Assembly: GCA_030834275.1 (NCBI GenBank)
Contig: JAURFP010000004.1
Location: forward strand, 1,191-63,269
From: Burkholderiales bacterium
GTDB lineage: Bacteria > Pseudomonadota > Gammaproteobacteria > Burkholderiales > Eutrophovitaceae
Length of the DNA: 62,079 nucleotides
Direction: 5' to 3'
The notes under the pieces are model-generated. The model saw only the letters and a program-made list of their open reading frames with translations. It had not been told where the DNA came from and did no database searches. Positions within the stretch are counted from its first letter, which is position 1, and every line of letters begins with the position of its first letter. Made by a program: the position numbers and the translations under genes. Positions 19,649 to 60,878 of the stretch are shown one piece after another.

Positions 19649-19685
19649 AAACAAAAAAGCCCGACGATGTCGGGCTTTTTTGTTT
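19649..19685. terminator. Bidirectional intrinsic terminator
   Basis: AAACAAAAAAGCCCGAC-gat-GTCGGGCTTTTTTGTTT between convergent dctM and tonB. Confidence 0.9.
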
Positions 19686-19696
19686 AATCATTAATA

Positions 19697-20401
19697 CTAA
19701 GACTTCGACCACGGATCTATTTTAAAAATAAATCGCTGGATAAATTGGGGTCCTTTTTCGCAAAAACGTCTGAACTGCCAACCCTTAACCTTTTCCAGGA
19801 CCTCGCTATCAAAAACACCTGGATGGTCAGCAAACACCACCTTCGCGTCTATGACGTAACCATCATCATCTACGGTTACGAGAAGTTCAATTTCACCCTC
19901 AATCTTTTGATCCTCGGCAGTACGTGGATATACAGGAAAAGGTTTCTTGCTAACCGGGCAAGGATCTTGAAACACCGACGGTAGCGGTGGAAGCTCTTCC
20001 TCTTTTTTCTTCTTCTCGGGTTTGAGCTCCGGCTTTGGAAAAGCAATCTTCGCTGGAATCTCATTTGGCAATGGCTTCGGCTGCTCAAGACGAACTGTAT
20101 TCTTTATTTGTTTGAGCTCTAACTCTGGTTTCTCTTCCTCTTTTTTTCGTATTTGATTATTTGGTTTTATCTCGGACTTAGGAAGTGGTTGGTCTAGTTT
20201 TACCGTCATCACTGGCTTAGGTTGCGGTTTTTCAAATACATCCATTAACCCTTGCCAATTAAACCAGTAACCCCCCACTGGAAAAATAAACTCAATGATG
20301 AGCGCAATAAGAAACGCTTTCCAAAGCGCCAGACTCCTCTCAGATTGAACTTCACTACTACTCCATAGTGGAGCGATTTTTCGGTGACGACGAAAGAACA
20401 T
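19697..20401 (-). CDS. tonB: Energy transducer TonB-like protein
   Basis: N-terminal TM, Pro/Lys/Glu-rich linker, C-terminal PVYPRTA...IEG...V...G.V domain; follows exbBD. Confidence 0.85.
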   Translation of the reverse strand: MFFRRHRKIAPLWSSSEVQSERSLALWKAFLIALIIEFIFPVGGYWFNWQGLMDVFEKPQPKPVMTVKLDQPLPKSEIKPNNQIRKKEEEKPELELKQIKNTVRLEQPKPLPNEIPAKIAFPKPELKPEKKKKEEELPPLPSVFQDPCPVSKKPFPVYPRTAEDQKIEGEIELLVTVDDDGYVIDAKVVFADHPGVFDSEVLEKVKGWQFRRFCEKGPQFIQRFIFKIDPWSKS

Positions 20402-20415
20402 GAGATGTCTAAGAA

Positions 20416-20826
20416 TTATTGCCCCGATGCTATTGCAGCAATCCCTACCGAGTTGATACCTGCACCACGAACGCTATCCATTGCATCGATTAACGTGGAT
20501 AGAGGTACATCCTTATCGCCAGCGATAATTACGGCAACCTTACGGTTCTTTTTTAAATCCATCAATTTAGTCGTCAACTCAGAGGACGAGATGGTTTGCC
20601 CATTTACAATGAATTGATTATCTTTTTTCACTCCCACCGTGATCGTGGCTTCTTTAATCTCCTCGGTGGTCTTCGAGCCAGGTAAGTTCATGTCCACTCC
20701 CGTCCCGGCGATCATCTTCAGCGATATCACCACAAAGAAAATCAATAAAAACATCATGATGTCAATCATCGGGATGACTTCGACACGCGGTCGATCAGCA
20801 TCCAGATAACTTCTTCTTCTCGTCAT
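20416..20826 (-). CDS. exbD: ExbD/TolR family protein
   Basis: IPMIDIMMFLLIFF with the essential Asp; IAGDKDV. Confidence 0.92.
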   Translation of the reverse strand: MTRRRSYLDADRPRVEVIPMIDIMMFLLIFFVVISLKMIAGTGVDMNLPGSKTTEEIKEATITVGVKKDNQFIVNGQTISSSELTTKLMDLKKNRKVAVIIAGDKDVPLSTLIDAMDSVRGAGINSVGIAAIASGQ

Positions 20827-20862
20827 AATTTTTGCTCCCGCTAAAAGCAGATGAGATCAGGA

Positions 20863-21498
20863 TTAGGATTCTTTTGAACCACCACCAAAAAATCGATTTA
20901 AGAGCATTGTCTTTATCAAGTCCATTTGGTGCATAGCCAAGCGAGTACGTTTATTGAAATGGTTTAAGAATAAAACTGCGACAATCGCAATCAACAGACC
21001 CGCTCCAGTGGCCACTAGAGCCTCAGCGATACCACCCGTAACCATCTTCGTCGTATTTTCTGTTGAGCCAGCAGTGCCCAATACATCAAACGCATGAACC
21101 ATTCCAATAATGGTTCCAAGTAGCCCCATTAGAGGTGCTAGCGTGACAGACGTATCTAATACCCAGATACTTTTATCAATTTTCGGTAGCTGCCACATAA
21201 TAGATTCTTCTAGTTGACGATCCATCGCCTCTGGATTGTCCCGGCGTGATGAAAGCGCAGAGGAGATGAGCGATGACTGAAGCGTGTCAGCATAATGAGA
21301 TTCGAGCTCACGAAGTTGGTTAACGCTCTGATACTCAACTTTTTGAAGATCATGTTCCAGCGCATCTCCGCTTTTTAAAACGCGATGATAGAAATACAGA
21401 CGCTCGACGATTACTGTCAACGTGATCAACAGAAGCAGCCCCATTGCAGGCAGCAACCCCCCAGACATCTTGCTAAAGTGAATGATTGTGTCAACCAT
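20863..21498 (-). CDS. exbB: ExbB/TolQ/MotA family proton channel
   Basis: TLAPLMGLLGTIIGM, GIAEALVATGAGL; start at 21498 or 21516. Confidence 0.92.
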   Translation of the reverse strand: MVDTIIHFSKMSGGLLPAMGLLLLITLTVIVERLYFYHRVLKSGDALEHDLQKVEYQSVNQLRELESHYADTLQSSLISSALSSRRDNPEAMDRQLEESIMWQLPKIDKSIWVLDTSVTLAPLMGLLGTIIGMVHAFDVLGTAGSTENTTKMVTGGIAEALVATGAGLLIAIVAVLFLNHFNKRTRLAMHQMDLIKTMLLNRFFGGGSKES

Positions 21499-21555
21499 CT
21501 TCCCATCCCCCATCATTTTTTATTAGATCATTCAAACCAAAAAAATTAATTAGCG

Positions 21556-22575
21556 TTAGCGCGTCGATACAGGTGGATAAAACGGCATTCCGTAGCGCTC
21601 AACGATACGTTTGATCTCCCCCGATTTGAGCATTTCTGCAAAAGCATCATCTATAAATTTTTTAAAATCTATCTCTCTTCTTTTAACAACCCATGCGCTA
21701 TCCCAACGCATCTCGGGTACCGGTACATATCCGTCAGCCATTTCAAATTCCGCCTCTGGGCGATCCAGTTTTGCCTGGGAGATAGCACCCGACCAAATCA
21801 TGCCCGCATCAACCTGCCGCTTTATGAGCGCATCGACCACTCGGTAATTCTGAAAAAAAGTCTCGTTCGGAATCGCATGCTCTTGAGCATAATCGCTCAT
21901 GGGTGAATAAGCCGGAAGTCCAACCTTAACCCCTAGTTTTTTAATGTCATCCAAGCTCTTTGCTCCTCTTGCAGGGCCTTGTGTCACCAAAACAAACCCG
22001 GTACTCATAAAGGGAGCGGTAAATACCAGGTCACCACGATTCATCTGGTGATCATCATCGCCCGTAATGGTTAAGCCAAGAACAATGTCACAACGTCCGC
22101 GGTTGATAGACTGATCGTAAGCCCCTCCTGGAGCCCCAGGCCCAAACCGAGTCGACATATTTACCCACATCATCGCTACGTTCCAGTTATGTTTTTTAGC
22201 AATGGCGTTCAAGATTTCTATTTCTAAACCATCAGGCTCGTTTTTCCTCGACGTTCTGGAAAATGGCCAAAACCATCCATCGGCACAGGCTAGGATCGTA
22301 TTTAATTCCTTGGTCCGATCCATGGCATTCATCTTCTCCACCTCTCCAGTGACCCCAACAGATCGATAATTTTTATATCCGGCGCGATAAAGAGGGTCAG
22401 AAAGCGGTTCAAACACCTCCGGCTCGATATATCCCATTTTCGGTCCACGGTTTCTACCGTAAACATACTCATCCTCCAACTGAATCGGCTTAGAACCATC
22501 CTGGGCGAGGACAAACACTGGTAGTTGTGCGAGTATCAGAACTAGAGAAAATAAGGAAATAAATGAGCTTCTCAT
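21556..22575 (-). CDS. MxaJ/XoxJ-like quinoprotein-associated periplasmic binding protein with N-terminal extension (paralogue of 57969-58814)
   Basis: Signal peptide; ACAD..WPFS, GLEIEI, GRCDI, C-terminal YGMP; family-3 SBP pattern; start at 22575 or 22590. Confidence 0.78.
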   Translation of the reverse strand: MRSSFISLFSLVLILAQLPVFVLAQDGSKPIQLEDEYVYGRNRGPKMGYIEPEVFEPLSDPLYRAGYKNYRSVGVTGEVEKMNAMDRTKELNTILACADGWFWPFSRTSRKNEPDGLEIEILNAIAKKHNWNVAMMWVNMSTRFGPGAPGGAYDQSINRGRCDIVLGLTITGDDDHQMNRGDLVFTAPFMSTGFVLVTQGPARGAKSLDDIKKLGVKVGLPAYSPMSDYAQEHAIPNETFFQNYRVVDALIKRQVDAGMIWSGAISQAKLDRPEAEFEMADGYVPVPEMRWDSAWVVKRREIDFKKFIDDAFAEMLKSGEIKRIVERYGMPFYPPVSTR

Positions 22576-22748
22576 TGGTATATAAATCAAAGTGGAACAG
22601 CTCTTTTGAGAACCGCCATCAAAAATGGACTTGATCTAAAAATGGTGGATTGATTCATCTATATTTACTTTAAAATCTGACTCTACAGACGTCAAAGTGG
22701 ATCGATACTACACTATTTGATTAAGCAAGTTAATTATCAGAAATCAGA

Positions 22749-25233: not shown

Positions 25234-25698
25234 ATGTTTAAGTCGATTTCCATTCGGAATACCAAAGCTTTGGAAGCTGTGATCAGTTCGCTTGATGACG
25301 GTACTAAAAAATATAACGACCTCCGGGTGAGTTTTAACGATAGCAATCTTAAAATCAGCAGGCGTCAGGGACCGGCTATTCTGAGTGGATTCTTTCCGAT
25401 ATTTGTTGGGACCCTTAAAATTAAAGATGGAACGACGCTCTTAAACGGCTATTTTCGATTTCATATGATTGCGGTTGGTTTGCTACTCGGCTTTATCGGC
25501 TCTTCTTTGATTAACCTCTTCAACATACTCGCACAAAATAACGGTGATGCTAGCGTAATTGAGCTTCTTCTTAGCCCGCGAGCACTATTTGAACTACAAT
25601 TTTCTGGACTCTGTATTTTGGTGGCGATTTTTGCATGGCTCGGAGGAAAACCCTTCCGACAAAGAATACAGAATTTAATTATTGAAGCGTTCGAATAA
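25234..25698 (+). CDS. Hypothetical membrane protein (2 TM)
   Basis: RBS AAGGA; 154-aa ORF fills the gap and has two hydrophobic segments. Confidence 0.65.
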   Translation: MFKSISIRNTKALEAVISSLDDGTKKYNDLRVSFNDSNLKISRRQGPAILSGFFPIFVGTLKIKDGTTLLNGYFRFHMIAVGLLLGFIGSSLINLFNILAQNNGDASVIELLLSPRALFELQFSGLCILVAIFAWLGGKPFRQRIQNLIIEAFE

Positions 25699-51757: not shown

Positions 51758-52693
51758 ATGATTTCCTTAGAAAATGTATCGAAACGCTACGGCAGCAAAG
51801 AGATAATTCATAACGTCTCCTTCAATGTGAACAAAGGAGAAATCGTTGGGTTCTTGGGCCCCAATGGCGCTGGAAAGACCACAACGATGCGTATGATCGC
51901 AGGATTTACCGCGGCAACTTCCGGCAGAGTAATGATTGCCGGACACGACATGGCTGACCAAAATTACGAAGCAGCCAAAAAGATTGGTTACCTACCCGAA
52001 CATCCCCCGCTATACGACGTGCTAACGGTTCGCTCCTACCTGAAATTTTGCGCCGAAGCAAAACACATCGCAAAAGCAAGAATCCCGTCCGAGCTAGATC
52101 GCGTGATGCAGGCGTGTCAATTGGATGCAGTGGTTAATCGTGAGGTCTTCAAGCTCTCCAAGGGCTATCGGCAAAGGGTTGGGCTCGCGCAAGCGATTCT
52201 GGGTGATCCAGAAGTTTTATTGTTAGATGAGCCGACGGCTGGGCTAGATCCTGGACAGATTCAAGAGACACGAGAAGTTATTCGTTCTTTTGGCGAGAAT
52301 CATGCAGTGCTTTTAAGTACGCATATTCTTCCAGAGGTAACACTTATTTGTAAGCGCATCGCAATCATCAATGACGGCAGAATATTAGCTGTCGACTCTC
52401 CTGAATCTTTGCAGTCAGCGGTTGCACAATCGAATAAAGTAACGATCACCGCGATTGCCGACAAGGATGAACTTAAGAAAACACTCGTAGCGATTGATGG
52501 TGTGACGGATGCTATGGTATCCGAGCCTTCCCAGAACACCGGCGTAGTGAAGGCGGTGTGTCATGTCGCTGCTGAGGGCCGAATCGAATCAAAGATCGCG
52601 AAAGAAATAGCCACTCGATTCGAACTACTTGGCCTCGAGAAAGAACAACCAAACCTAGAGAACGTATTTTTACGCTACGTTGGAAAAAACTGA
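51758..52693 (+). CDS. ABC-2 type ATP-binding protein (GldA-like)
   Basis: GPNGAGKTT, GYLPE.PPLY, LSKGYRQRVG, STHILPEV. Confidence 0.9.
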   Translation: MISLENVSKRYGSKEIIHNVSFNVNKGEIVGFLGPNGAGKTTTMRMIAGFTAATSGRVMIAGHDMADQNYEAAKKIGYLPEHPPLYDVLTVRSYLKFCAEAKHIAKARIPSELDRVMQACQLDAVVNREVFKLSKGYRQRVGLAQAILGDPEVLLLDEPTAGLDPGQIQETREVIRSFGENHAVLLSTHILPEVTLICKRIAIINDGRILAVDSPESLQSAVAQSNKVTITAIADKDELKKTLVAIDGVTDAMVSEPSQNTGVVKAVCHVAAEGRIESKIAKEIATRFELLGLEKEQPNLENVFLRYVGKN

Positions 52694-52709
52694 AATTAGG
52701 AATATTGAA

Positions 52710-53417
52710 ATGAGCGGTGTATCTGCAATCTACAAAAAGGAATTGGCGAATTACTTTAACGCGCCGATTGCTTATTTCATCATCGCGGTTTTCCTTTTAG
52801 GAACCGGATACTTTTTTATCTACAACATGTTTATGACTGGCTCAGCCTCGCTCGAGATCACATTGCAGAACATGGGCATCCTACTGATTACGGTCGTCCC
52901 TGCGATCACGATGCGTCTATTCTCCTCCGAATACAGCTCCAAAACGATTGAGTTACTGATGACGCTTCCCATACGGCCATGGGAAATTGTTGTAGGAAAG
53001 TTTCTTGGTGCCGCATCCATTTTCCTATTGATGACGCTTGCCACGACGATTAATTTGATCCCACTGTTCTTGTACGGAAACCCAGATCTGTTGGCTACCG
53101 TTTCGGGTTATCTAGGGTTCATCCTCCTGGGACTCGCGTGTATCGCGATTGGTGAATTGTTTTCCTCGCTCACGCAAAATCAAATTATCGCTGCGCTATT
53201 AACTTGGCCTGTCTTACTTGGCTTCTGGTTTGTTGGGCACTTTAAGGTATTCCAGCAAACCGGATTTTTGCGTAGCTTCTCAGACTACCTATCGTTTACC
53301 GGTCACTACGCGAATTTTATTCAAGGACTTGTTCGGTCGGAAAGCGTTGTGTTCTTTTTAGCAACGATTTCTATCGCCTTAATCCTCAATACTAGTTATC
53401 TGAAAGGGAGGCGATAG
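52710..53417 (+). CDS. ABC-2 type permease (GldF-like)
   Basis: KKELANYFNAPIAY, PAITMRLFSSE...TIELL, SSLTQNQIIA. Confidence 0.88.
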   Translation: MSGVSAIYKKELANYFNAPIAYFIIAVFLLGTGYFFIYNMFMTGSASLEITLQNMGILLITVVPAITMRLFSSEYSSKTIELLMTLPIRPWEIVVGKFLGAASIFLLMTLATTINLIPLFLYGNPDLLATVSGYLGFILLGLACIAIGELFSSLTQNQIIAALLTWPVLLGFWFVGHFKVFQQTGFLRSFSDYLSFTGHYANFIQGLVRSESVVFFLATISIALILNTSYLKGRR

Positions 53418-53419
53418 TC

Positions 53420-55057
53420 ATGAACCAATCTTTCCGAAACCTTATCTTCTTACTGGTTGGCATCGCGCTCGTTTTCCTCTCGAGGATCTTTGATGCCATC
53501 TTGATTGAACAGCCATTCGTAACAAATGGCCTACTTATTCTCGGAATTATTTTTGCACTCACCGGCGGAATAAAAATGCGATCCGAGATCGCTGAGCTCT
53601 TCAAGAAACGTAGAGGAGAGCGACTGCTCCGTACCATTGGCCTCATCGGAATTGTTGTCGCGCTTTGTAATCTTTCCATTCGTTTTCCGGCCAGAATGGA
53701 TATGACCGACGCGCACCGCCATTCTTTGTCTACGAAAACTACCGATATGTTGGAACGATTAGAGACACCCGTTCACATTACGTTTTTCCATGATCAACTC
53801 ATGACCGAGACGGTCGATTTCTACGAGCAAATGGCCGCGATTACCGACAAGGTGACCGTTGAATTCCATGATCCGATGCTCAATCCGTCTATGGCGCGAG
53901 TCAAGGGAATCGAGTTTGCGGGTACTGCAATAATGGAGAGCGAAGATCGTAAAATTCAAGTCCACTCCCCTCTCGAGGTAGATATTGCAAATGCGGTGTT
54001 AAAAATATCCCAAGGAATCCAACAGACCGTATGCTTCTTAGATGGTCATGGTGAACCTGACCCTTTCAGTCTGGAGAAACACGACCACATGGAGGGGACT
54101 GGAGGTGATCACTCACACGGTTTGGGTAGCAGGATTTTGATTCATGAGCGGCACGGAATGGCAAAACTTCGAACAAGCCTTGAGAGCATGAACTATGTTG
54201 CTCAGAAGGTGAGCCTTGTTCAGGGTACGGCTTCGCTCGATGCCTGTGACTTGTTTATCGTAGCAGGACCTCAAACGCGGCTCATGGATGCAGAAGTAAA
54301 AGCGATCGATGAGTATCTCAATGCTGGTAAGAATGTCTTACTCATGCTAGATCCGTTTATCGAGACTGGACTCGAGCCAATTATCAAAAAACTGGGTGTG
54401 ATTTTAGATAACGACCTCGTGATTGATCCAAAGAGTCATTTCTGGGCAGATGTGTCATCTCCTGCGGTAACACAATACAATCGCCACTCGATAACGGAAG
54501 ACATCCCTCTGACTTTCTTCCCAGGGGCTCGATCACTTTCACCAACAGAAAACCGAGTTCCAGAGACTTATGTTCGACCACTTGTTAATTCATCAACGGA
54601 GAGCTTCGGGGAGACAGACCAGTCGACTGCGTCATTTACGGAAGGTGTAGATACTAAGGGTCCACTGACCATGATGGTAATCATTGAGAGGGATCCGTCG
54701 CGCATTGACAAGATGCGACCGTTACTAGAACAGACCAGAAACGAGGAAGTGAGCGCGACACAATCGACAACCAATTCAGAAGATGCAGTGAAAACATCTC
54801 GAATCGCGATCTTTGGTGACTCAGACTTTGCCACTAACTCATTCTTCCACGTGCTCGGTAACGGAAAACTCATTCTCAATACGATTAACTACTTGACCGT
54901 TCAAGAGAACCTGATCGGGCTAGAACCAAAGACGATGGATATCCCGCAGGTAACGCTTACCAACGAGCAAATGAAAGGGGTGTTCTTTATGTCTATCCTA
55001 CTCATCCCTTCTTTGATGGCGCTGATTGGGATTGCAGTTTGGTGGAGACGTAGATAA
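53420..55057 (+). CDS. GldG-like ABC auxiliary membrane/periplasmic protein with His-rich insertion
   Basis: DMT...SLS, FLDGHGE, VAGPQ, GDSDF..N, C-terminal TM ending WWRRR. Confidence 0.82.
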   Translation: MNQSFRNLIFLLVGIALVFLSRIFDAILIEQPFVTNGLLILGIIFALTGGIKMRSEIAELFKKRRGERLLRTIGLIGIVVALCNLSIRFPARMDMTDAHRHSLSTKTTDMLERLETPVHITFFHDQLMTETVDFYEQMAAITDKVTVEFHDPMLNPSMARVKGIEFAGTAIMESEDRKIQVHSPLEVDIANAVLKISQGIQQTVCFLDGHGEPDPFSLEKHDHMEGTGGDHSHGLGSRILIHERHGMAKLRTSLESMNYVAQKVSLVQGTASLDACDLFIVAGPQTRLMDAEVKAIDEYLNAGKNVLLMLDPFIETGLEPIIKKLGVILDNDLVIDPKSHFWADVSSPAVTQYNRHSITEDIPLTFFPGARSLSPTENRVPETYVRPLVNSSTESFGETDQSTASFTEGVDTKGPLTMMVIIERDPSRIDKMRPLLEQTRNEEVSATQSTTNSEDAVKTSRIAIFGDSDFATNSFFHVLGNGKLILNTINYLTVQENLIGLEPKTMDIPQVTLTNEQMKGVFFMSILLIPSLMALIGIAVWWRRR

Positions 55058-55060
55058 GAG

Positions 55061-55678
55061 ATGTCCATTAAAAACAAGAACAATATATTCATCTGGATAA
55101 TACTTGGAGCCTTAGTTCTCGTAATTGGATATCTTAAGTGGCAGGACTCCCAGAAAGTTTCGCAGATCCGAGACCCGCTTTGGGTGGATGAGCGGTCGCT
55201 TTTGCCTCTACCGATTGAGAATATCGCCGCACTTGAGATTGGTTATCAAGGAAATCTTCACCGGTTCGATCGCGATAGTCAAGGGACATGGTTCTATCAC
55301 GCGCACGGGGGGTCTACAGGTGTGATGACTGAGCATGGGCACGTAGCCGATGCGGCGGCTGGAGACGCTATTGCAAAATTTTTAGTGGGGCTCAATAACG
55401 CGAGGATTGAGCGTTTTCTTGAGACGGATGAAAAGTCCGCATATGGGGTCATCAATCCTTCTTTGATATTACTTGCTTACAAAGATGCTGAAGGATCTCC
55501 GTTAGCCCAGTATGCGTTTGGAGATCAGGCCCCCGATGGACTGAGTCGGTACGTATTGATTATGGGGCGAGACGACGTGGTGTTGATCGCAGATTATCAA
55601 CATAAAAATCTGATTGATCTAGTCGATGCGGCACAATCAATGGTCGCCCCCCCGCCCTCACAGATATCGAATGACTAG
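55061..55678 (+). CDS. DUF4340-like membrane-anchored periplasmic protein with His-rich loop
   Basis: N-terminal anchor; W..., AD, YG...P and G..AP....Y pattern; follows the gldG-like gene. Confidence 0.65.
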   Translation: MSIKNKNNIFIWIILGALVLVIGYLKWQDSQKVSQIRDPLWVDERSLLPLPIENIAALEIGYQGNLHRFDRDSQGTWFYHAHGGSTGVMTEHGHVADAAAGDAIAKFLVGLNNARIERFLETDEKSAYGVINPSLILLAYKDAEGSPLAQYAFGDQAPDGLSRYVLIMGRDDVVLIADYQHKNLIDLVDAAQSMVAPPPSQISND

Positions 55679-57456: not shown

Positions 57457-57939
57457 CTACTCAGGAAAAACCATCTGCTCTTCTACTTTGTAAGGATCAG
57501 CGATCTCTCCCGCAGCAACTCTTCGCGCCTCTTCCCATCTTAAGAAGGTCAGCACACTGAGGATCTCCTCGTAGGACATCGTCGTGCCAAATGCGCCCAT
57601 CGTTCCACCAAGCGAGCGGTTTTGGATACCACCGGCAATCGTTGCGTAGATCGATGCGTTGGTGTTTGCTGTATAAACAAACTTTCCGCAACTTAAACAA
57701 GGACCTTTTCCACCGTGCCCGTCACCGCCGTGACAAAATGAGCAACGCTGTGCATATTTTCCTTTTCCGAATTCAACGATCTCCATATTTTCGGTTGGCA
57801 CCTCGAGATCTGTCTCATTCATCTTGTGGCCCGCGTAAGCCGAGTCAATAACACTTGAGTTGGTCATGACGCTCACAGCCACCACTGCTAAAGCAGCGAG
57901 TCCCAATCGGCTAAAAAGCGACGAAAACTTAATTACCAT
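57457..57939 (-). CDS. Periplasmic monoheme cytochrome c, probable electron acceptor of the PQQ dehydrogenase
   Basis: Signal peptide; CSFCH, a second CLSC, MGAF axial Met; GGGGAGG RBS supports ATG at 57939. Confidence 0.88.
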   Translation of the reverse strand: MVIKFSSLFSRLGLAALAVVAVSVMTNSSVIDSAYAGHKMNETDLEVPTENMEIVEFGKGKYAQRCSFCHGGDGHGGKGPCLSCGKFVYTANTNASIYATIAGGIQNRSLGGTMGAFGTTMSYEEILSVLTFLRWEEARRVAAGEIADPYKVEEQMVFPE

Positions 57940-57968
57940 TACGTGAAGCCTCCCCATTAATTATTTTC

Positions 57969-58814
57969 TTATTCCGCGTCGAGTGGTGCGAAATAAGGCA
58001 CACCATACTTCTCAACGATACTCTTAATTGTACCGTCATCAAGCAGCTTCTGGATAGCTTCATCGATGAATTCTTTGAATGCTTTATCTCTTTTTCTAAC
58101 AAGAAAATTTAAATTCCACTGCTGACCCTCTTGCGGCTTAAAACCTTCGGAAATTTTAAACACCGCCTCAGGATGATTTTTCTTTGCTACTACAGGAACC
58201 GTAGCCCAAACGAGAGCTGCATCAACTTGACCGTCGACCATCCCCTTCATGGCTCTCGCGTTGTCTGGGTACACTTCACGCTTAACTCCGTGCGTAAAGA
58301 GCCAATCATCCATTGGAGTAGACATCTGCACTCCGATACGGATATCTGCTGCCGCCAACTCTTCTATACTGTTCATTCCAGCTGCAGTATTTTGCACGAC
58401 CAGCACGTAACCGATAGCCATGTATGGATTAGAGAAGGCCAACTGACCCATCAGGATATCGTCATCACCATTATCGCCAACCCCTGCAAAAATATCACAT
58501 CGCCCCTTGAGAATAGAGTTTCTCAATGCACGCGACATACCACCTCGCGTACCGGTATCGGCCCAATACATCTCCAAGGCCATACCGCCAGCCTTTGCAA
58601 TTTCCTGCATAATTTCCACATCGAACCCTGGAGGATTGGTGTTCTTGATCGAATACGGGAAAGTATACGGATCCGCACACGCTACAATTTTTTTCCTCGC
58701 TTGCGAACGCTCTAGGGTATCGAGCGACTCTTCTCCCTCTTGCGCAAAAGATGACGTCGTATAACCTGTCGCAAGGACACTAGCTGCTAATACACTTATG
58801 AAACGCTTAAACAA
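57969..58814 (-). CDS. MxaJ/XoxJ-like quinoprotein dehydrogenase-associated periplasmic binding protein
   Basis: Signal peptide; ACADPYTFPYS, GFDVEI, GRCDI, YGVP; lies between the dehydrogenase and the cytochrome; TTG start with GAGGAG. Confidence 0.85.
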   Translation of the reverse strand: MFKRFISVLAASVLATGYTTSSFAQEGEESLDTLERSQARKKIVACADPYTFPYSIKNTNPPGFDVEIMQEIAKAGGMALEMYWADTGTRGGMSRALRNSILKGRCDIFAGVGDNGDDDILMGQLAFSNPYMAIGYVLVVQNTAAGMNSIEELAAADIRIGVQMSTPMDDWLFTHGVKREVYPDNARAMKGMVDGQVDAALVWATVPVVAKKNHPEAVFKISEGFKPQEGQQWNLNFLVRKRDKAFKEFIDEAIQKLLDDGTIKSIVEKYGVPYFAPLDAE

Positions 58815-58913
58815 TTTACTCTCCTCAAAACGCGTTTAACTTAGAAACCTCTATTATATTCGGATTAACGAACGCGTCCGAAGTTCACCCAGATAAATAG
58901 CTTCTATAAAAAA

Positions 58914-58939
58914 TAAGGGAGGGCAATTGCCCTCCCTTA
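58914..58939 (-). terminator. Intrinsic terminator after the PQQ dehydrogenase
   Basis: Perfect palindrome TAAGGGAGGGCAATTGCCCTCCCTTA followed by a U tract on the minus strand; a second small hairpin at 58951-58969. Confidence 0.8.
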
Positions 58940-58983
58940 ATCGAACTACTTCTACGACTACTTCGTAGAGCGTTACCCGGAGA

Positions 58984-60726
58984 TTAGTCTACGGTGAACG
59001 CCATCAAAGCACCACCTTTGGTGTGTGTCTTGAGGAAGTTTGCGTAGTAAAGTGGCCAGATACCACCACCACCAGCACCGTATACGATAGCAACGTACTG
59101 CTTACCGTTAATTGTGTAGGTTGTTGGGTTACCGTGGACACCTGAGCCCATCTGGAATGACCAGAGGTGCTCACCAGTCTCATCATTAACTGCATTGAAT
59201 CGGCCGTCTGGATCGCCATAGAATGCCAATCCACCACCGGTGGTCAAGAGACCACTAGTTGCAGGCCAGCTCTGTGACTTGGTCCATACGAGATCACCAG
59301 TAGCAGCATCAAACGCCTTGATCAAACCAGCACCAGCATTGAAGGTAATAACCTTAGCGCCGAGGTACCACTCACCACGCTTCCACTCCATTTTCTTGGC
59401 CTGGAGGTCCATGGTGAAGTTGTAGATCGGAACATATGCCATCTTGGTTCGGAGGCTGACTGAGAGTGGGTGCCACTCTTTACCACCGTCAAGTGATGGA
59501 GCAATGTTCTGGGTTACGCGGTCATATACAACATCCATCTCTGGGTAGTTGAATACTGGACGGCAGTTGTCCTTAGCTGGAGAAATTGGCTCACTGATCC
59601 AGTTAACGTCTTGCATTGGAGTTACCCAAACGCACTTAAGAGCGTTACCAGATTTGGTCTTAATCGTGTTGCGACGATCAATACCGTAGATGTGGCCGTT
59701 TCTGTCACCGTGAACAAAGATCTTCTTACCACCTAAGTCGATTTGTACGTTCTCGTTAACACCGTCGTAATCGTATGGATCATTTGGTGTGTAGTTGAAG
59801 TACGCATCGATCTTACCGCTATCAGCGTTTACGACGATAGCAGAGTTCGAGAAGAGGTTGTCCCCTGGACGAACGTGACGGTCAAAGTCAGGTCCTGGGT
59901 TACCCACTGGCCAGAATAGCTGGTTGGTTTCTTTGTCGTAAGAACCGGTAATCCATGTTGAACCACCGCCGTACTTCCAAGAATCACCACCCCACGTATC
60001 GTTACCAGGCTCACCTGGTCCAGGAATTGTGTAGGTTTTCCATGCTGGAGCGCCGGTATCTGCATCGATAGCAGCTAACCAACCACGAACACCGTACTCA
60101 GCACCTGCGGTACCGAACACAACCTTGTTGTTAACAACCAAAGGCATGATCGTGAAGGTTTCAGCATATGTGTAGTCACCAACTTTCTTGTCCCAAACAA
60201 CATCACCGGTTTGGTTATCAAGAGCAACTACGTGTGCATCAAGAGTAGCTAAGTAAACTTTGTTCTTGTAAACAGCTACACCTCGGTTCACCACGTCACA
60301 GCACAGTTTAGGGAACACGTCACCTGGAAGCTCACGCTCGTACTTCCAGAGAATGTCTCCAGTCTCACCGTTTACAGCCATGACTCGGTTAAATGAAGTC
60401 GTCACGTACAGTGTGCCGTTAACTGCAACTGCCTGGCTGTCCTGACCTTCAAGAATACCGAATGACAAGTTCCAAGCTGGCTTGAGTGACTTGACGTTAT
60501 CACGGTTAACTTGTGACAACGCGCTGTAACGGGTCATTTGGTAATCTTTACCGTAGTGCAACCAGTTTTGTGAATCTTTGTCAGCGTTCATGAGCATGTC
60601 ATTCGTGACATAGTTTGGATAGAGCTGTGACTCGAGTCTATCCACACCAATGGCAGAAGCCATGCTGGAAGCGCCTAACAAAGCAAGAGCAGCGGTAGAA
60701 ACCGCAACGCGCTTAAAGTTATGCAT
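58984..60726 (-). CDS. PQQ-dependent dehydrogenase, methanol/ethanol family, lanthanide-type active-site motif
   Basis: Signal peptide; CCDVVNRG vicinal Cys, GAEYGVRG, GNP, RPGDN, DYDGVNE, W-docking repeats; GGAGG RBS supports ATG at 60726. Confidence 0.93.
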   Translation of the reverse strand: MHNFKRVAVSTAALALLGASSMASAIGVDRLESQLYPNYVTNDMLMNADKDSQNWLHYGKDYQMTRYSALSQVNRDNVKSLKPAWNLSFGILEGQDSQAVAVNGTLYVTTSFNRVMAVNGETGDILWKYERELPGDVFPKLCCDVVNRGVAVYKNKVYLATLDAHVVALDNQTGDVVWDKKVGDYTYAETFTIMPLVVNNKVVFGTAGAEYGVRGWLAAIDADTGAPAWKTYTIPGPGEPGNDTWGGDSWKYGGGSTWITGSYDKETNQLFWPVGNPGPDFDRHVRPGDNLFSNSAIVVNADSGKIDAYFNYTPNDPYDYDGVNENVQIDLGGKKIFVHGDRNGHIYGIDRRNTIKTKSGNALKCVWVTPMQDVNWISEPISPAKDNCRPVFNYPEMDVVYDRVTQNIAPSLDGGKEWHPLSVSLRTKMAYVPIYNFTMDLQAKKMEWKRGEWYLGAKVITFNAGAGLIKAFDAATGDLVWTKSQSWPATSGLLTTGGGLAFYGDPDGRFNAVNDETGEHLWSFQMGSGVHGNPTTYTINGKQYVAIVYGAGGGGIWPLYYANFLKTHTKGGALMAFTVD

Positions 60727-60878
60727 TAATACACCTCCCATTAAAAACGAAATCTCTAAAAACTAGACATCTTCGTTTGTAGGTTTTTGTTTAAATATCT
60801 AAACTGCGTAAAGCATAAATCTGTGAATCGCAGAACCAGAGTACTGTGCTTCTAAAATTAATCCTTTACGACGTGTAA

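What the first reader, a model, noticed from the sequence alone, without database searches (positions are those of the whole stretch)
19697..22575. XoxJ-like protein heading a receptor-less exbB-exbD-tonB operon: a possible motor-driven maturation or loading system for a quinoprotein
Seen: four co-oriented genes with short gaps (XoxJ-like SBP, exbB, exbD, tonB), closed by a strong terminator. There is no TonB-dependent receptor and no ABC permease beside them, and no receptor anywhere in the window. The SBP is a clear paralogue of the one in the PQQ dehydrogenase operon (shared ACAD, GRCDI, GDDD and YGxP blocks). Known: MxaJ/XoxJ proteins are accessory/activation factors of PQQ methanol dehydrogenases rather than parts of ABC importers, and TonB-ExbBD applies pmf-driven force to periplasm-exposed peptides. 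Inference: this may be a dedicated module for acquiring or inserting PQQ or lanthanide into the dehydrogenase, with TonB acting on a soluble periplasmic client or on a receptor encoded elsewhere. I do not know of a description of this gene combination.
Basis: partly seen in the sequence, partly recalled or inferred. Interest (0 to 1): 0.82.

Follow-up and report, generated by a model that had tools for sequence, protein, structure and literature searches.

The report
Binding protein with TonB box and motor
A group of uncultured water bacteria encodes a soluble binding-type protein whose free front end looks like the handle that the TonB motor normally grabs on outer-membrane transporters, next to its own spare copy of that motor, which suggests a motor that pulls on a soluble protein.

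Summary
The four minus-strand genes are real: a secreted SBP_bac_3 protein (21556-22575), exbB, exbD and tonB, closed by a 17-bp-stem terminator.

- **Linkage is conserved.** exbB follows the SBP gene in 58 of 61 loci from Burkholderiales MAGs; the other 3 stop at contig ends. It also follows in 5 of 5 loci of a family where the SBP is only 42-48% identical. The flanking genes change.
- **It is not the only Ton motor.** A housekeeping xseA/exbB-exbD-lpxK set and an orphan TonB also exist.
- **New here: the mature SBP starts with a conserved tail.** Residues 34-48 (KPIQLEDEYVYGRNR) are disordered in the monomer model and resemble the TonB boxes of this lineage's receptors. In the complex model they pair in parallel with the last strand of the co-encoded TonB (ipSAE 0.78; best control 0.00).
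- **Related motors in other families carry a receptor gene beside them.** In three of these loci the receptor occupies the SBP's position, directly upstream of exbB.

Best reading: the SBP is a direct, soluble TonB client, TolB-like.

The proposed link to PQQ dehydrogenase or lanthanide rests only on paralogy, family-level co-distribution, one adjacent locus and one homologue inside a PQQ-dehydrogenase cluster. All evidence is computational.

The parts
21556..22575 (-). Secreted SBP_bac_3-fold protein (339 aa from the ATG at 22575; the ORF runs on to a TTG at 22590). It is a paralogue of the SBP in the PQQ dehydrogenase operon.
   Evidence: The fold model has mean pLDDT 79.3 and pTM 0.81. The nearest solved folds are amino-acid-type SBPs.
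22501..22575 (-). Predicted Sec signal peptide (residues 6-30 of the 344-aa ORF). There is no lipobox cysteine.
   Evidence: Read from the sequence; the hydrophobic N-termini of the orthologues align. This is an inference, as no signal-peptide predictor was run.
22447..22491 (-). TonB-box-like N-terminal tail of the mature protein, residues 34-48 (KPIQLEDEYVYGRNR).
   Evidence: Translation checked. Conserved in 50 aligned sequences: L38 in 50 of 50, E41 in 46, V43 in 47, Y44 in 44, G45 in 46, R48 in 49. pLDDT is below 50 in the monomer model. This is the main interface with TonB in the complex model.
20863..21516 (-). ExbB-type proton-channel subunit (217 aa).
   Evidence: PF01618, 102 bits. 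All NCBIfam equivalog scores are below their cut-offs.
20416..20826 (-). ExbD-type subunit (136 aa) with an Asp in the membrane helix (IPMIDIMMF).
   Evidence: PF02472, 99 bits; sequence.
19697..20401 (-). TonB-family protein (234 aa) with a membrane anchor, a Lys/Glu/Pro-rich linker and a C-terminal domain carrying the YP motif.
   Evidence: PF03544, 41.6 bits; TIGR01352, 35.4 bits against a cut-off of 27.1. The anchor lacks the usual His.
19721..19744 (-). Last beta-strand of the TonB C-terminal domain (residues 220-227, FIQRFIFK), predicted to pair with the SBP tail.
   Evidence: One search gives the tightest contacts as SBP mature residues 8-14 with TonB fragment residues 86-93. Translation checked.
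19649..19685 (-). Terminator-like hairpin closing the operon. It lies between the convergent tonB and dctM genes.
22667..22695 (-). Sigma-70-like promoter match upstream of the SBP gene, in the 158-nt divergent intergenic region.
   Evidence: 9 of 12 positions match. The region held 3 such sites against a mean of 6.1 in shuffles, so this is weak.
57457..60741 (-). Context only: PedH-like PQQ alcohol dehydrogenase, a tail-less paralogous SBP and a cytochrome c, 35 kb away.

Best explanation
The operon encodes a second, specialised Ton motor (ExbB-ExbD-TonB) together with its own soluble client.

The client is a periplasmic protein with a substrate-binding-protein fold. After signal-peptide removal, its first roughly 20 residues form a flexible, strongly conserved tail that acts as a TonB box. 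The tail adds a parallel beta-strand to the last strand of the TonB C-terminal domain. Receptor TonB boxes do this with TonB, and the N-terminus of TolB does it with TolA.

The proton-driven motor then pulls on the SBP. Because a free protein cannot be put under tension, the pull most likely removes the SBP from a partner it is bound to, or peels open its first lobe.

The most likely partner class is a periplasmic enzyme such as a PQQ dehydrogenase. The nearest relatives of this SBP sit in the XoxJ/MxaJ position of such operons.

- **Shown:** the gene content, the conserved linkage, the conserved tail, the existence of a separate housekeeping motor, and presence in RNA libraries.
- **Supported only by models:** binding of the tail to TonB.
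- **Inferred:** the pulling, the partner and the physiological role.
For: 1. **Linkage.**
   - exbB follows the SBP gene in 19 of 19 non-self loci from relatives.
   - It follows in 58 of 61 loci from the species-genome scan. The other 3 loci end within 381 nt of the SBP gene. tonB is found in 55 of 61, and the 6 misses all stop at contig ends.
   - It follows in 5 of 5 loci of another family where the SBP is only 42-48% identical.
   - The flanks are conserved only among close relatives: the hydratase gene in 19 of 61 loci and TRAP dctM in 16 of 61. The BT1-type transporter gene is kept in 26 of 61, seven of them more distant loci.
2. **Separate housekeeping system.**
   - A same-genus genome carries xseA/exbB-exbD-lpxK-kdsB-adk.
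   - In this genome, contig C57 ends 38 residues into that exbB.
   - An orphan TonB with the usual S-x3-H anchor lies on C28.
   - tolQR is on C43 and a motAB-like pair is on C116.
3. **The tail.**
   - Every full-length homologue begins, right after the signal peptide, with an acidic residue followed by alternating hydrophobic residues.
   - It resembles the pre-plug TonB-box regions of the lineage's own receptors.
   - A post-hoc pattern drawn from both hit only this SBP and the C80 receptor among 2181 ORFs of the genome.
   - Mature residues 1-4 and 7-22 have pLDDT below 50 in the monomer model.
4. **Complex model.**
   - ipSAE was 0.78, 0.81 and 0.77 in three runs. The best of 3 controls scored 0.00.
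   - The mark was reached by 58 of 80 solved complexes and by 2 of 110 mismatched pairs. These counts hold only roughly, because my own alignments were used.
   - The runs agree in at least 87% of contacts, and the partner's pLDDT is at least 86.
   - Residue indices rise together on both chains, which indicates parallel pairing.
5. **Operon architecture.** Among 8 loci of related ExbB (44-56% identical) from families without this SBP:
   - 5 have Pfam-confirmed TonB-dependent receptors next to the motor. The receptor is directly upstream of exbB in L119, L121 and L124, downstream in L117 and divergent in L123.
   - 1 more (L122) has a receptor match by tblastn only.
   - 2 have none.
6. **Precedent.** TolB is a soluble protein whose disordered N-terminus binds TolA by beta-strand augmentation and is pulled off Pal (passages of PMC8928145, and PMC12905483).
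7. **Presence in RNA libraries.** Contigs of 4 metatranscriptome runs from 4 studies hold pieces of all four genes. One bridges the SBP/exbB junction and one bridges the exbD/tonB junction.
Against: - No experiment exists. Binding rests on one structure-prediction job.
- Complexes of TonB with TonB boxes are solved, so the pass may reflect memory. It shows that the tail looks like a TonB box to the model, not that it binds.
- The tail differs from the receptor boxes in detail, for example Tyr or Gly where receptors have Val or Thr.
- The motor is not strictly tied to the SBP.
  - In family f20 the orthologous exbB-exbD-tonB (59-62% identical ExbB) stands without an SBP gene upstream.
  - In two of the three f20 genomes examined (G347, G100), the tail-bearing SBPs lie elsewhere, as tandem pairs after DUF1800-DUF1501 genes.
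  - The third (G043) has no tail-bearing SBP at E <= 1e-20.
- Motor relatives are ordinary receptor energisers, and this genome has two receptors that the motor could serve.
- A soluble client needs an anchored partner for force to matter, and none was identified.
- The link to PQQ dehydrogenase is circumstantial, and the genes are 35 kb apart in this window.
Confidence: 0.55

Rival explanations
1. This is an ordinary second Ton system that energises the genome's outer-membrane receptors. The SBP is the periplasmic shuttle of the same uptake route. It may dock on TonB as a scaffold near the receptor, and it hands its ligand to an inner-membrane transporter encoded elsewhere, or to the neighbouring BT1-type MFS.
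For: - Related motors sit in classical uptake loci with receptors and, in two loci (L119, L123), SBP_bac_5 proteins.
- The genome has two receptors, on C11 and C80.
- The fold is closest to amino-acid-type SBPs.
- A distant folate/biopterin-family MFS gene is the most persistent neighbour, present in 26 of 61 loci by tblastn.
- The motor exists without an adjacent SBP in family f20.
Against: - No receptor was found within 6 kb in any of the 61 loci, using the genome's two receptors as tblastn queries.
- No ABC permease or ATPase is linked.
- A housekeeping ExbBD and TonB are already present.
- A scaffold role does not explain why a disordered tail in TonB-box position and form is among the best conserved parts of the protein.
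- The position that holds an arginine in the aligned glutamine-binding domain (T-I-T-D-E-R) is not an arginine here (T-I-T-G-D-D-D-H) (alignment).
Confidence: 0.25
2. The SBP gene and the motor are linked by descent in one lineage, without direct contact between their products. The conserved tail serves another partner, for example the enzyme that the SBP chaperones, or it packs on the SBP itself.
For: - All loci come from a few related Burkholderiales families, so the number of independent events is small.
- Tail-bearing homologues occur away from any motor gene, in L089, L093 and L094.
- The model may score TonB-box look-alikes from memory (caveat).
Against: - Linkage survives complete turnover of the flanks and SBP divergence down to 42% identity.
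- The genes have 14-39 nt gaps and one terminator.
- All three controls of the complex model scored 0.00.
- Genomes whose tail-bearing SBPs are unlinked still carry the orthologous motor.
Confidence: 0.12
3. The SBP is released from the cell as a capture protein and is pulled back through a receptor by its own TonB box. Colicins enter this way, and ferredoxin is taken up this way by the TonB-like FusB.
For: - An N-terminal TonB box on a soluble protein is the hallmark of imported proteins.
- A dedicated TonB-like protein that binds its protein substrate directly is described for FusB (abstract of PMC7593965, seen in the listing).
Against: - No secretion system, receptor or processing gene is linked to the module.
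- The protein has only a Sec signal peptide.
- The small genomes hold just two receptors.
Confidence: 0.05

Closest known systems
Tol-Pal system: TolQ-TolR-TolA acting on soluble TolB
   Same: A 5:2-type proton-driven stator with an elongated TonB/TolA-type arm. The arm's C-terminal domain is predicted to bind the disordered N-terminus of a soluble periplasmic protein by parallel beta-strand addition. The client gene is encoded with the motor. (Passages of PMC8928145 and PMC12905483; model.)
   Different: - The client has an SBP fold, not a beta-propeller.
- The arm is a TonB_C protein, not TolA.
- No Pal-like anchored partner is known.
- The true tolQR genes lie elsewhere in the genome.
Classical Ton systems with a co-encoded TonB-dependent receptor
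   Same: ExbB, ExbD and TonB_C domains are all present. The client-exbB-exbD-tonB gene order seen here is that of related Burkholderiales loci. The client carries an N-terminal box just after its signal peptide.
   Different: - The client has no plug and no barrel and is soluble.
- No receptor lies within 6 kb in 61 loci.
- The TonB anchor has Trp where the usual motif has His.
MxaJ/XoxJ, SBP-fold chaperones of PQQ methanol dehydrogenases
   Same: SBP_bac_3 fold. The best NCBIfam hit is the MoxJ-related family TIGR03871. A 34%-identical paralogue occupies the J position of a PQQ dehydrogenase operon in the same window. A 39%-identical tail-bearing homologue follows a PQQ dehydrogenase in L093. 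MxaJ is a chaperone for PQQ insertion that must be displaced from MxaF (passages of PMC12276312).
   Different: - Scores are far below the family cut-offs: 49.4 against 212, and 15.6 against 258.
- A family profile found no match to XoxJ at E <= 0.001.
- The gene is not next to a dehydrogenase here.
- It has a roughly 70-residue N-terminal extension, including the tail, that the operon paralogue lacks.
- No known J protein is reported with a TonB box; the searches found none.
TonB contacts with periplasmic binding proteins such as FhuD and BtuF (recalled, not read here)
   Same: TonB touching an SBP in the periplasm.
   Different: Those SBPs belong to ABC importers and, as far as I recall, have no TonB box. 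They are also not encoded with a private motor.

Membership tests
Ton motor (ExbB-ExbD-TonB) | MotA/TolQ/ExbB channel domain | tested here: met
   PF01618, 102.2 bits against a cut-off of 22.9. No NCBIfam equivalog cut-off was reached; the best is tolQ at 75.7 against 221.
Ton motor (ExbB-ExbD-TonB) | ExbD/TolR domain with an acidic residue in the membrane helix | tested here: met
   PF02472, 99.3 bits. An Asp lies in IPMIDIMMF and is kept in the orthologues printed.
Ton motor (ExbB-ExbD-TonB) | TonB C-terminal domain | tested here: met
   PF03544, 41.6 bits against 24.6; TIGR01352, 35.4 against 27.1. The Y-P pair is invariant in 50 sequences.
Ton motor (ExbB-ExbD-TonB) | Ser-x3-His-x6-Leu-x3-Ser motif in the TonB anchor (as worded in PMC12905483) | tested here: not met
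   The anchor reads S-L-A-L-W, with Trp in the His position, and has a conserved Glu further along the helix. The orphan TonB on C28 has S-x3-H. I therefore call this protein a TonB-family protein with an atypical anchor.
MxaJ / XoxJ (TIGR03870, TIGR03871) | Score at or above the curated family cut-off | tested here: not met
   TIGR03871, 49.4 against 212.15; TIGR03870, 15.6 against 258.1. The operon paralogue also stays below its cut-off, at 88.1 against 212.15.
MxaJ / XoxJ (TIGR03870, TIGR03871) | Gene placed beside a PQQ methanol/ethanol dehydrogenase gene | tested here: not met
   The dehydrogenase is 35 kb away in this window. The feature is met only by the paralogue at 57969-58814 and by the homologue in L093.
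ABC-importer substrate-binding protein, family 3 | SBP_bac_3 domain | tested here: met
   PF00497, 43.5 bits against 26.4. Foldseek top hits are amino-acid SBPs with target-normalised TM-scores of 0.75-0.81 for the best ones.
ABC-importer substrate-binding protein, family 3 | Linked permease and ATPase genes | tested here: not met
   None lies beside the gene in the window. No such gene recurred among the flanking-gene clusters of the 61 loci.
TonB-dependent receptor | Plug domain and 22-strand barrel | tested here: not met
   Only SBP_bac_3 was found in the protein. The genome's Plug matches are on C11 and C80.
TonB-box-bearing client (functional class) | Disordered N-terminal strand that pairs with the last strand of the TonB C-terminal domain | tested here: inconclusive
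   Supported only by models. ipSAE was 0.78 against 0.00 for the best control, and the tail's pLDDT is below 50 in the monomer. This is not a measurement.

The most novel reading that the evidence does not exclude
This would be a proton-driven chaperone cycle in the periplasm. The tail-bearing SBP is a J-type (MxaJ/XoxJ-like) chaperone that clamps an apo quinoprotein dehydrogenase or another periplasmic enzyme. Homodimeric PedH/XoxF-type enzymes have no MxaI subunit to displace it. A private TonB motor therefore strips the chaperone off by pulling its N-terminal TonB box. This would give the energy-free periplasm a force-powered step in enzyme maturation.
Probability: 0.15. Interest if true: 0.9.

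Novelty: new variant of a known kind. Interest (0 to 1): 0.74.

Why it matters
Ton motors are known to pull on outer-membrane receptors, and on imported toxins that pass through them. The sister Tol motor pulls on soluble TolB.

A Ton motor whose co-encoded client is a soluble protein with a binding-protein fold would widen what these machines are used for. It would also give a concrete, testable pair, a 15-residue tail and a 100-residue domain.

If the client proves to be a J-type chaperone, it would bear on an open question noted in the discussion of PMC12276312: how XoxF-type enzymes, which lack the small subunit that displaces MxaJ, mature.

The family is annotated in public records only as a generic amino-acid-transport binding protein.

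Tried and rejected
- **'The only Ton motor in the genome'.** This looked true at first, because only one ExbBD set was found in the 77.6%-complete MAG. It was rejected after the housekeeping set was found in a same-genus genome and its first 38 residues were found at the end of contig C57.
- **PQQ scavenging.** Rejected, because pqqC is present in this genome and in 4 of 4 relatives searched.
- **Specific likeness to XoxJ or MxaJ.**
  - The family profile did not reach 6onp at E <= 0.001.
  - The listed Foldseek top hits are generic amino-acid SBPs.
  - Only the tail-less paralogue hits 6onp, at E = 1.6e-8 over its first lobe.
- **A metal-permease link.** A HupE/UreJ gene precedes the SBP in L060, but no homologue was found in the other 65 loci searched. 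The one homologue in this genome lies on another contig, C56.
- **A greedy 'longest ORF' gene caller on high-GC loci.** It produced shadow ORFs. I replaced it with a third-position-GC filter.
- **Fused forms.** Two long representatives that match only the N-terminal part (P0131, P0137) look like frameshifted or chimeric gene calls, not real fusions.
- **RNA cover.**
  - No RNA-library contig covered 22696-23003 in the four runs. Contigs cannot show absence, so I draw nothing from this.
  - Depth cannot rank the genes.
  - Runs with small word shares (X18-X20) say nothing about habitat.
- **Earlier notes of this scan.** Nothing relevant was found.
- **Not possible under the caps.** Complex models of the SBP with the dehydrogenases, of the SBP with the housekeeping TonB, or of the tail-less paralogue with TonB.


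Full report
**What is there**

The region 19697-22590 holds four minus-strand genes.
- Pfam assigns them to SBP_bac_3, MotA_ExbB, ExbD and TonB_C, all above the curated cut-offs.
- The gaps between them are 39, 36 and 14 nt.
- A hairpin with a 17-pair stem and a T run follows tonB, between it and the convergent TRAP dctM gene.
- The SBP ORF can start at a TTG (22590).
- Upstream, on the other strand, lie a hydratase of the fumarylacetoacetate-hydrolase family, a distant folate/biopterin-type MFS gene and a 154-aa ORF with no family match.
- The window has no TonB-dependent receptor. The genome's two Plug matches are on contigs C11 and C80.

- The gene at 57969-58814(-) is 34% identical and shares the motif blocks.
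- It lies between a PQQ dehydrogenase, whose best solved relative is the quinoprotein ethanol dehydrogenase entry 6zcw, and a cytochrome c.

**The genome and its motors**

The window lies in a 1.68-Mb, 77.6%-complete MAG. The closest named record in the species-genome collection is a betaproteobacterial MAG whose SBP is 95% identical.

The genome has three MotA/ExbB-family genes:
- ybgC-tolQ-tolR on C43;
- a motA/motB-like pair on C116;
- the gene studied here.

A fourth gene is cut by a contig end. In a same-genus genome, a second exbB-exbD pair stands in the order xseA / exbB-exbD-lpxK-kdsB-adk. In this genome, contig C57 carries xseA and stops 38 residues into that exbB, which is 97% identical. 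A second TonB_C protein stands alone on C28 beside aroE.

**Is the linkage conserved?**

Yes.
- In 19 of 19 non-self loci from relatives in seven genera, exbB follows the SBP gene. exbD follows in 18; the remaining locus ends.
- A scan of one genome per species returned 61 loci, nearly all labelled Burkholderiales or Betaproteobacteria.
  - exbB follows in 58. The other 3 end within 381 nt of the SBP gene.
  - exbD follows in 57.
  - tonB follows in 55. All misses are at contig ends.
- The flanks are kept only among the closer loci: the hydratase gene in 19 of 61, TRAP dctM in 16 and the MFS gene in 26.
- In a further family (f34), with SBP identity of 42-48%, 5 of 5 loci fetched again show SBP-exbB-exbD-tonB.
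- No receptor was found within 6 kb in the 61 loci when the genome's two receptors were used as queries.

**How far the family reaches**

- In 401 genomes sampled across the order, 45 have a match at E <= 1e-20. This count includes one unpublished genome, G311, with a fragmentary match on which nothing else rests.
  - Full-length matches fall in families f1, f10, f28 and f45. More distant ones fall in f34 and f20.
- Outside the order, none of the other 399 scored genomes of the class sample matched at E <= 1e-30. One further genome could not be scored.
- Against 1.84 billion representatives, only 38 proteins reach E <= 1e-30 and 187 reach 1e-10.
- Public names are generic: 'transporter substrate-binding domain-containing protein' and 'ABC-type amino acid transport substrate-binding protein'.

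**The new feature: a TonB-box-like tail**

Compared with the operon paralogue, the TonB-linked SBP has about 70 extra residues between the signal peptide and the first strand of the fold.

Its first part is the same in all full-length homologues. It consists of a few residues after the predicted cleavage site, then Leu, acidic residues, and alternating hydrophobic residues ending in Gly/Ala and basic residues.
- Window: IQLEDEYVYGRNRG.
- Common form: FELEPEYVYGRNRKP.
- Family f34: ELDVEYVIANPRPR.
- Family f20: ELETETVIGKKQK and ELEQEVVIGKRERD.
- The copy behind a PQQ dehydrogenase in L093: KLDTEIVVGGQHG.

In 50 aligned sequences with a mean column identity of 60%, L38 is invariant. E41, V43, Y44, G45 and R48 are kept in 44-49 of the 50.

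The pre-plug regions of the lineage's own receptors read PDVEVTAYR, DDVVVTATRF, LEAPTVEVVGSTP and NELETETIEVISTTP. The last of these belongs to the orthologues of this genome's C80 receptor, and its first six residues after the Asn (ELETET) also open the f20 SBP tail.

A pattern written after seeing both sets hit only this SBP and the C80 receptor among 2181 ORFs of the genome. Because the pattern is post hoc, this shows only that the shared motif is rare.

**Models**

- **Monomer.** An AlphaFold2 model built on the 50-row alignment gives a confident two-lobe SBP core (mean pLDDT 79.3, pTM 0.81). Mature residues 1-4 and 7-22 are left below pLDDT 50.
- **Fold search.** Foldseek finds amino-acid-type SBPs, mostly open forms.
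- **Complex.** The job paired the mature SBP with the last 100 residues of the co-encoded TonB, each as a 50-row alignment.
  - ipSAE was 0.78, 0.81 and 0.77. The best of 3 controls scored 0.00.
  - The mark was reached by 58 of 80 solved complexes and by 2 of 110 mismatched pairs in the tool's calibration. These counts hold only roughly with my own alignments.
  - The runs agree in at least 87% of contacts, and the partner's pLDDT is at least 86.
  - The tightest contacts join SBP mature residues 8-14 (LEDEYVY) to TonB fragment residues 86-93 (FIQRFIFK, the last strand). Indices rise on both chains, so the pairing is parallel. This is the mode described for TonB boxes and for TolB with TolA (passages).
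  - Further contacts join the SBP's C-terminal helices to the segment before the TonB domain.
- **Caveat.** Complexes of TonB with TonB boxes are solved. The pass therefore shows that the tail is TonB-box-like for this TonB, not that it binds.

**Relatives of the motor**

- ExbB proteins at E <= 1e-35 occur in 78 of 401 order genomes. That is more than carry the SBP.
- In family f20 the orthologous exbB-exbD-tonB (59-62% identical ExbB) has no SBP gene upstream.
  - In two of the three f20 genomes examined (G347, G100), tail-bearing SBPs lie elsewhere, as tandem pairs after DUF1800 and DUF1501 genes.
  - The third (G043) has the motor but no tail-bearing SBP at E <= 1e-20.
  - One apparent exception in f34 (G158) has the motor at the very start of a contig, so the SBP gene may simply be cut off.
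- I fetched 8 loci of more distant ExbB relatives (44-56% identical) from families without the SBP.
  - 5 have Pfam-confirmed TonB-dependent receptors beside the motor. The receptor is directly upstream of exbB on the same strand in L119, L121 and L124, downstream in L117 and divergent in L123.
  - One more (L122) has a receptor match by tblastn only.
  - Two have none.
  - Two of the 8 also carry SBP_bac_5 genes after tonB.
- So this motor type normally travels with a receptor client. In three of these loci the receptor holds the upstream position that, in the clade studied here, is held by a soluble protein with a receptor-like N-terminus.

This is the strongest comparative argument that the SBP is the client. 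The same data show that the motor type can serve receptors, which keeps the first rival alive.

**The PQQ and lanthanide idea**

*For:*
- The paralogy described above.
- A 39%-identical tail-bearing homologue overlaps the stop codon of a PQQ dehydrogenase, in a cluster of three such genes in L093.
- In L060 the module lies 2.5 kb from the cytochrome c, tail-less SBP and dehydrogenase block. It sits within the same ABC-2 / GldG-like / DUF4340 ... coaBC-dut neighbourhood that adjoins the PQQ operon in this window.
- In small genomes of the family, the two SBP genes lie 32-47 kb apart on one contig.
- The dehydrogenase clade (66% identity or more) occurs in families f1, f20, f28, f34 and f45 and in no other sampled family. 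These are all families that also carry the SBP family, so the co-occurrence counts very few independent events.
- The genome has three PQQ dehydrogenase genes but only two J-like SBPs.
- MxaJ is now described as a chaperone that holds MxaF for PQQ insertion and is displaced by the small subunit MxaI. The maturation of XoxF-type enzymes is stated to be unresolved (passages of PMC12276312).

*Against:*
- The genes are 35 kb apart in this window.
- pqqC is present.
- The scores against the MoxJ families are far below their cut-offs.
- Nothing ties the module to lanthanides.

I put the dehydrogenase link at about one in four.

**Expression**

The stretch occurs nearly word for word in metagenome contigs labelled estuary, marsh, marine, freshwater and crustacean-associated. 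Some of these may be the source sample.

Contigs of four metatranscriptome runs from four studies cover pieces of all four genes, mostly at 99% identity or more.
- Record 22 spans 21390-21649, across the SBP/exbB junction.
- Record 11 spans 20369-20659, across the exbD/tonB junction, with only 33 letters on the tonB side.

RNA libraries can contain DNA, and contigs do not prove a single transcript.

**Literature**

Full-text searches found no description of an SBP with a TonB box, or of this gene combination.
- exbB, exbD, tonB, substrate-binding protein, lanthanide.
- TonB box, periplasmic protein, solute-binding protein, ExbB, beta-strand augmentation.
- XoxJ with TonB.
- XoxJ, XoxG, periplasmic binding protein, crystal structure.
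- TonB box, periplasmic, soluble protein, dedicated TonB, ExbB-ExbD.

I saw listings and abstracts for these searches. I read passages of PMC8928145, PMC12905483 and PMC12276312, and the outline and abstract of PMC12036975. Supplementary files were not consulted. Subscription papers are outside the library.

**Verdict**

- The operon is best read as a Ton-type motor with a soluble, TonB-box-bearing client of SBP fold, working like Tol with TolB. I give this a confidence of 0.55.
- The module is a new variant of a known kind of machine. It rests on sequence, synteny and models only.
- Its physiological role, including the proposed quinoprotein link, remains open.

Noticed in passing
window 19697-20401 (-), residues 23-38: The module's TonB anchor has Trp where the usual Ser-x3-His motif has His, and a Glu further along the membrane helix. 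Both are kept in the orthologues printed. The genome's orphan TonB on contig C28 has the usual S-x3-H.
   Followed up: partly
L089 7336-12268 and L094 7646-12932 (family f20): Two tail-bearing SBP paralogues stand in tandem directly after a DUF1800-DUF1501 gene pair, away from any motor gene. This suggests that such SBPs may serve periplasmic enzymes other than PQQ dehydrogenases.
   Followed up: partly
L093 5609-13800: A cluster of three PQQ-dehydrogenase-family genes (674, 813 and 601 aa). A tail-bearing SBP gene overlaps the end of the first.
   Followed up: partly
L098 7912-10755: A shorter SBP homologue (30% identical to the operon paralogue), with part of the N-terminal extension but no TonB-box-like strand, lies upstream of a sulfatase gene.
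   Followed up: no
L060 31-12739: One long same-strand run of genes leads into SBP-exbB-exbD-tonB: a metallo-beta-lactamase-fold gene, an ABC ATPase, an ABC-2 permease, a GldG-like gene, DUF4340 and HupE/UreJ. After it come radC, coaBC, dut and the PQQ operon. The HupE/UreJ gene is 16 nt from the SBP gene, but none of the other 65 loci searched has one.
   Followed up: yes
window 51758-55678 (+): An ABC-2-type set: an ORF of 311 aa, an ORF of 245 aa, a GldG-like 545-aa protein and a DUF4340-like 205-aa protein. It sits before coaBC-dut and the PQQ operon. The block is syntenic with L060.
   Followed up: partly
genome contigs C58 59588-61438 (-) and C22 19234-20997 (+): Two further PQQ-dehydrogenase-family genes (37% and 32% identical to the one in the window), with no J-like SBP gene nearby.
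   Followed up: no
L119 and L123: In other Burkholderiales families, related motors sit in receptor-exbB-exbD-tonB-SBP_bac_5 uptake loci. L119 has two receptors in a row.
   Followed up: partly
window 25234-25698 (+): A 154-aa ORF after the MFS gene has no Pfam or NCBIfam match. It is conserved at 36-97% identity in 18 of the 61 loci.
   Followed up: no
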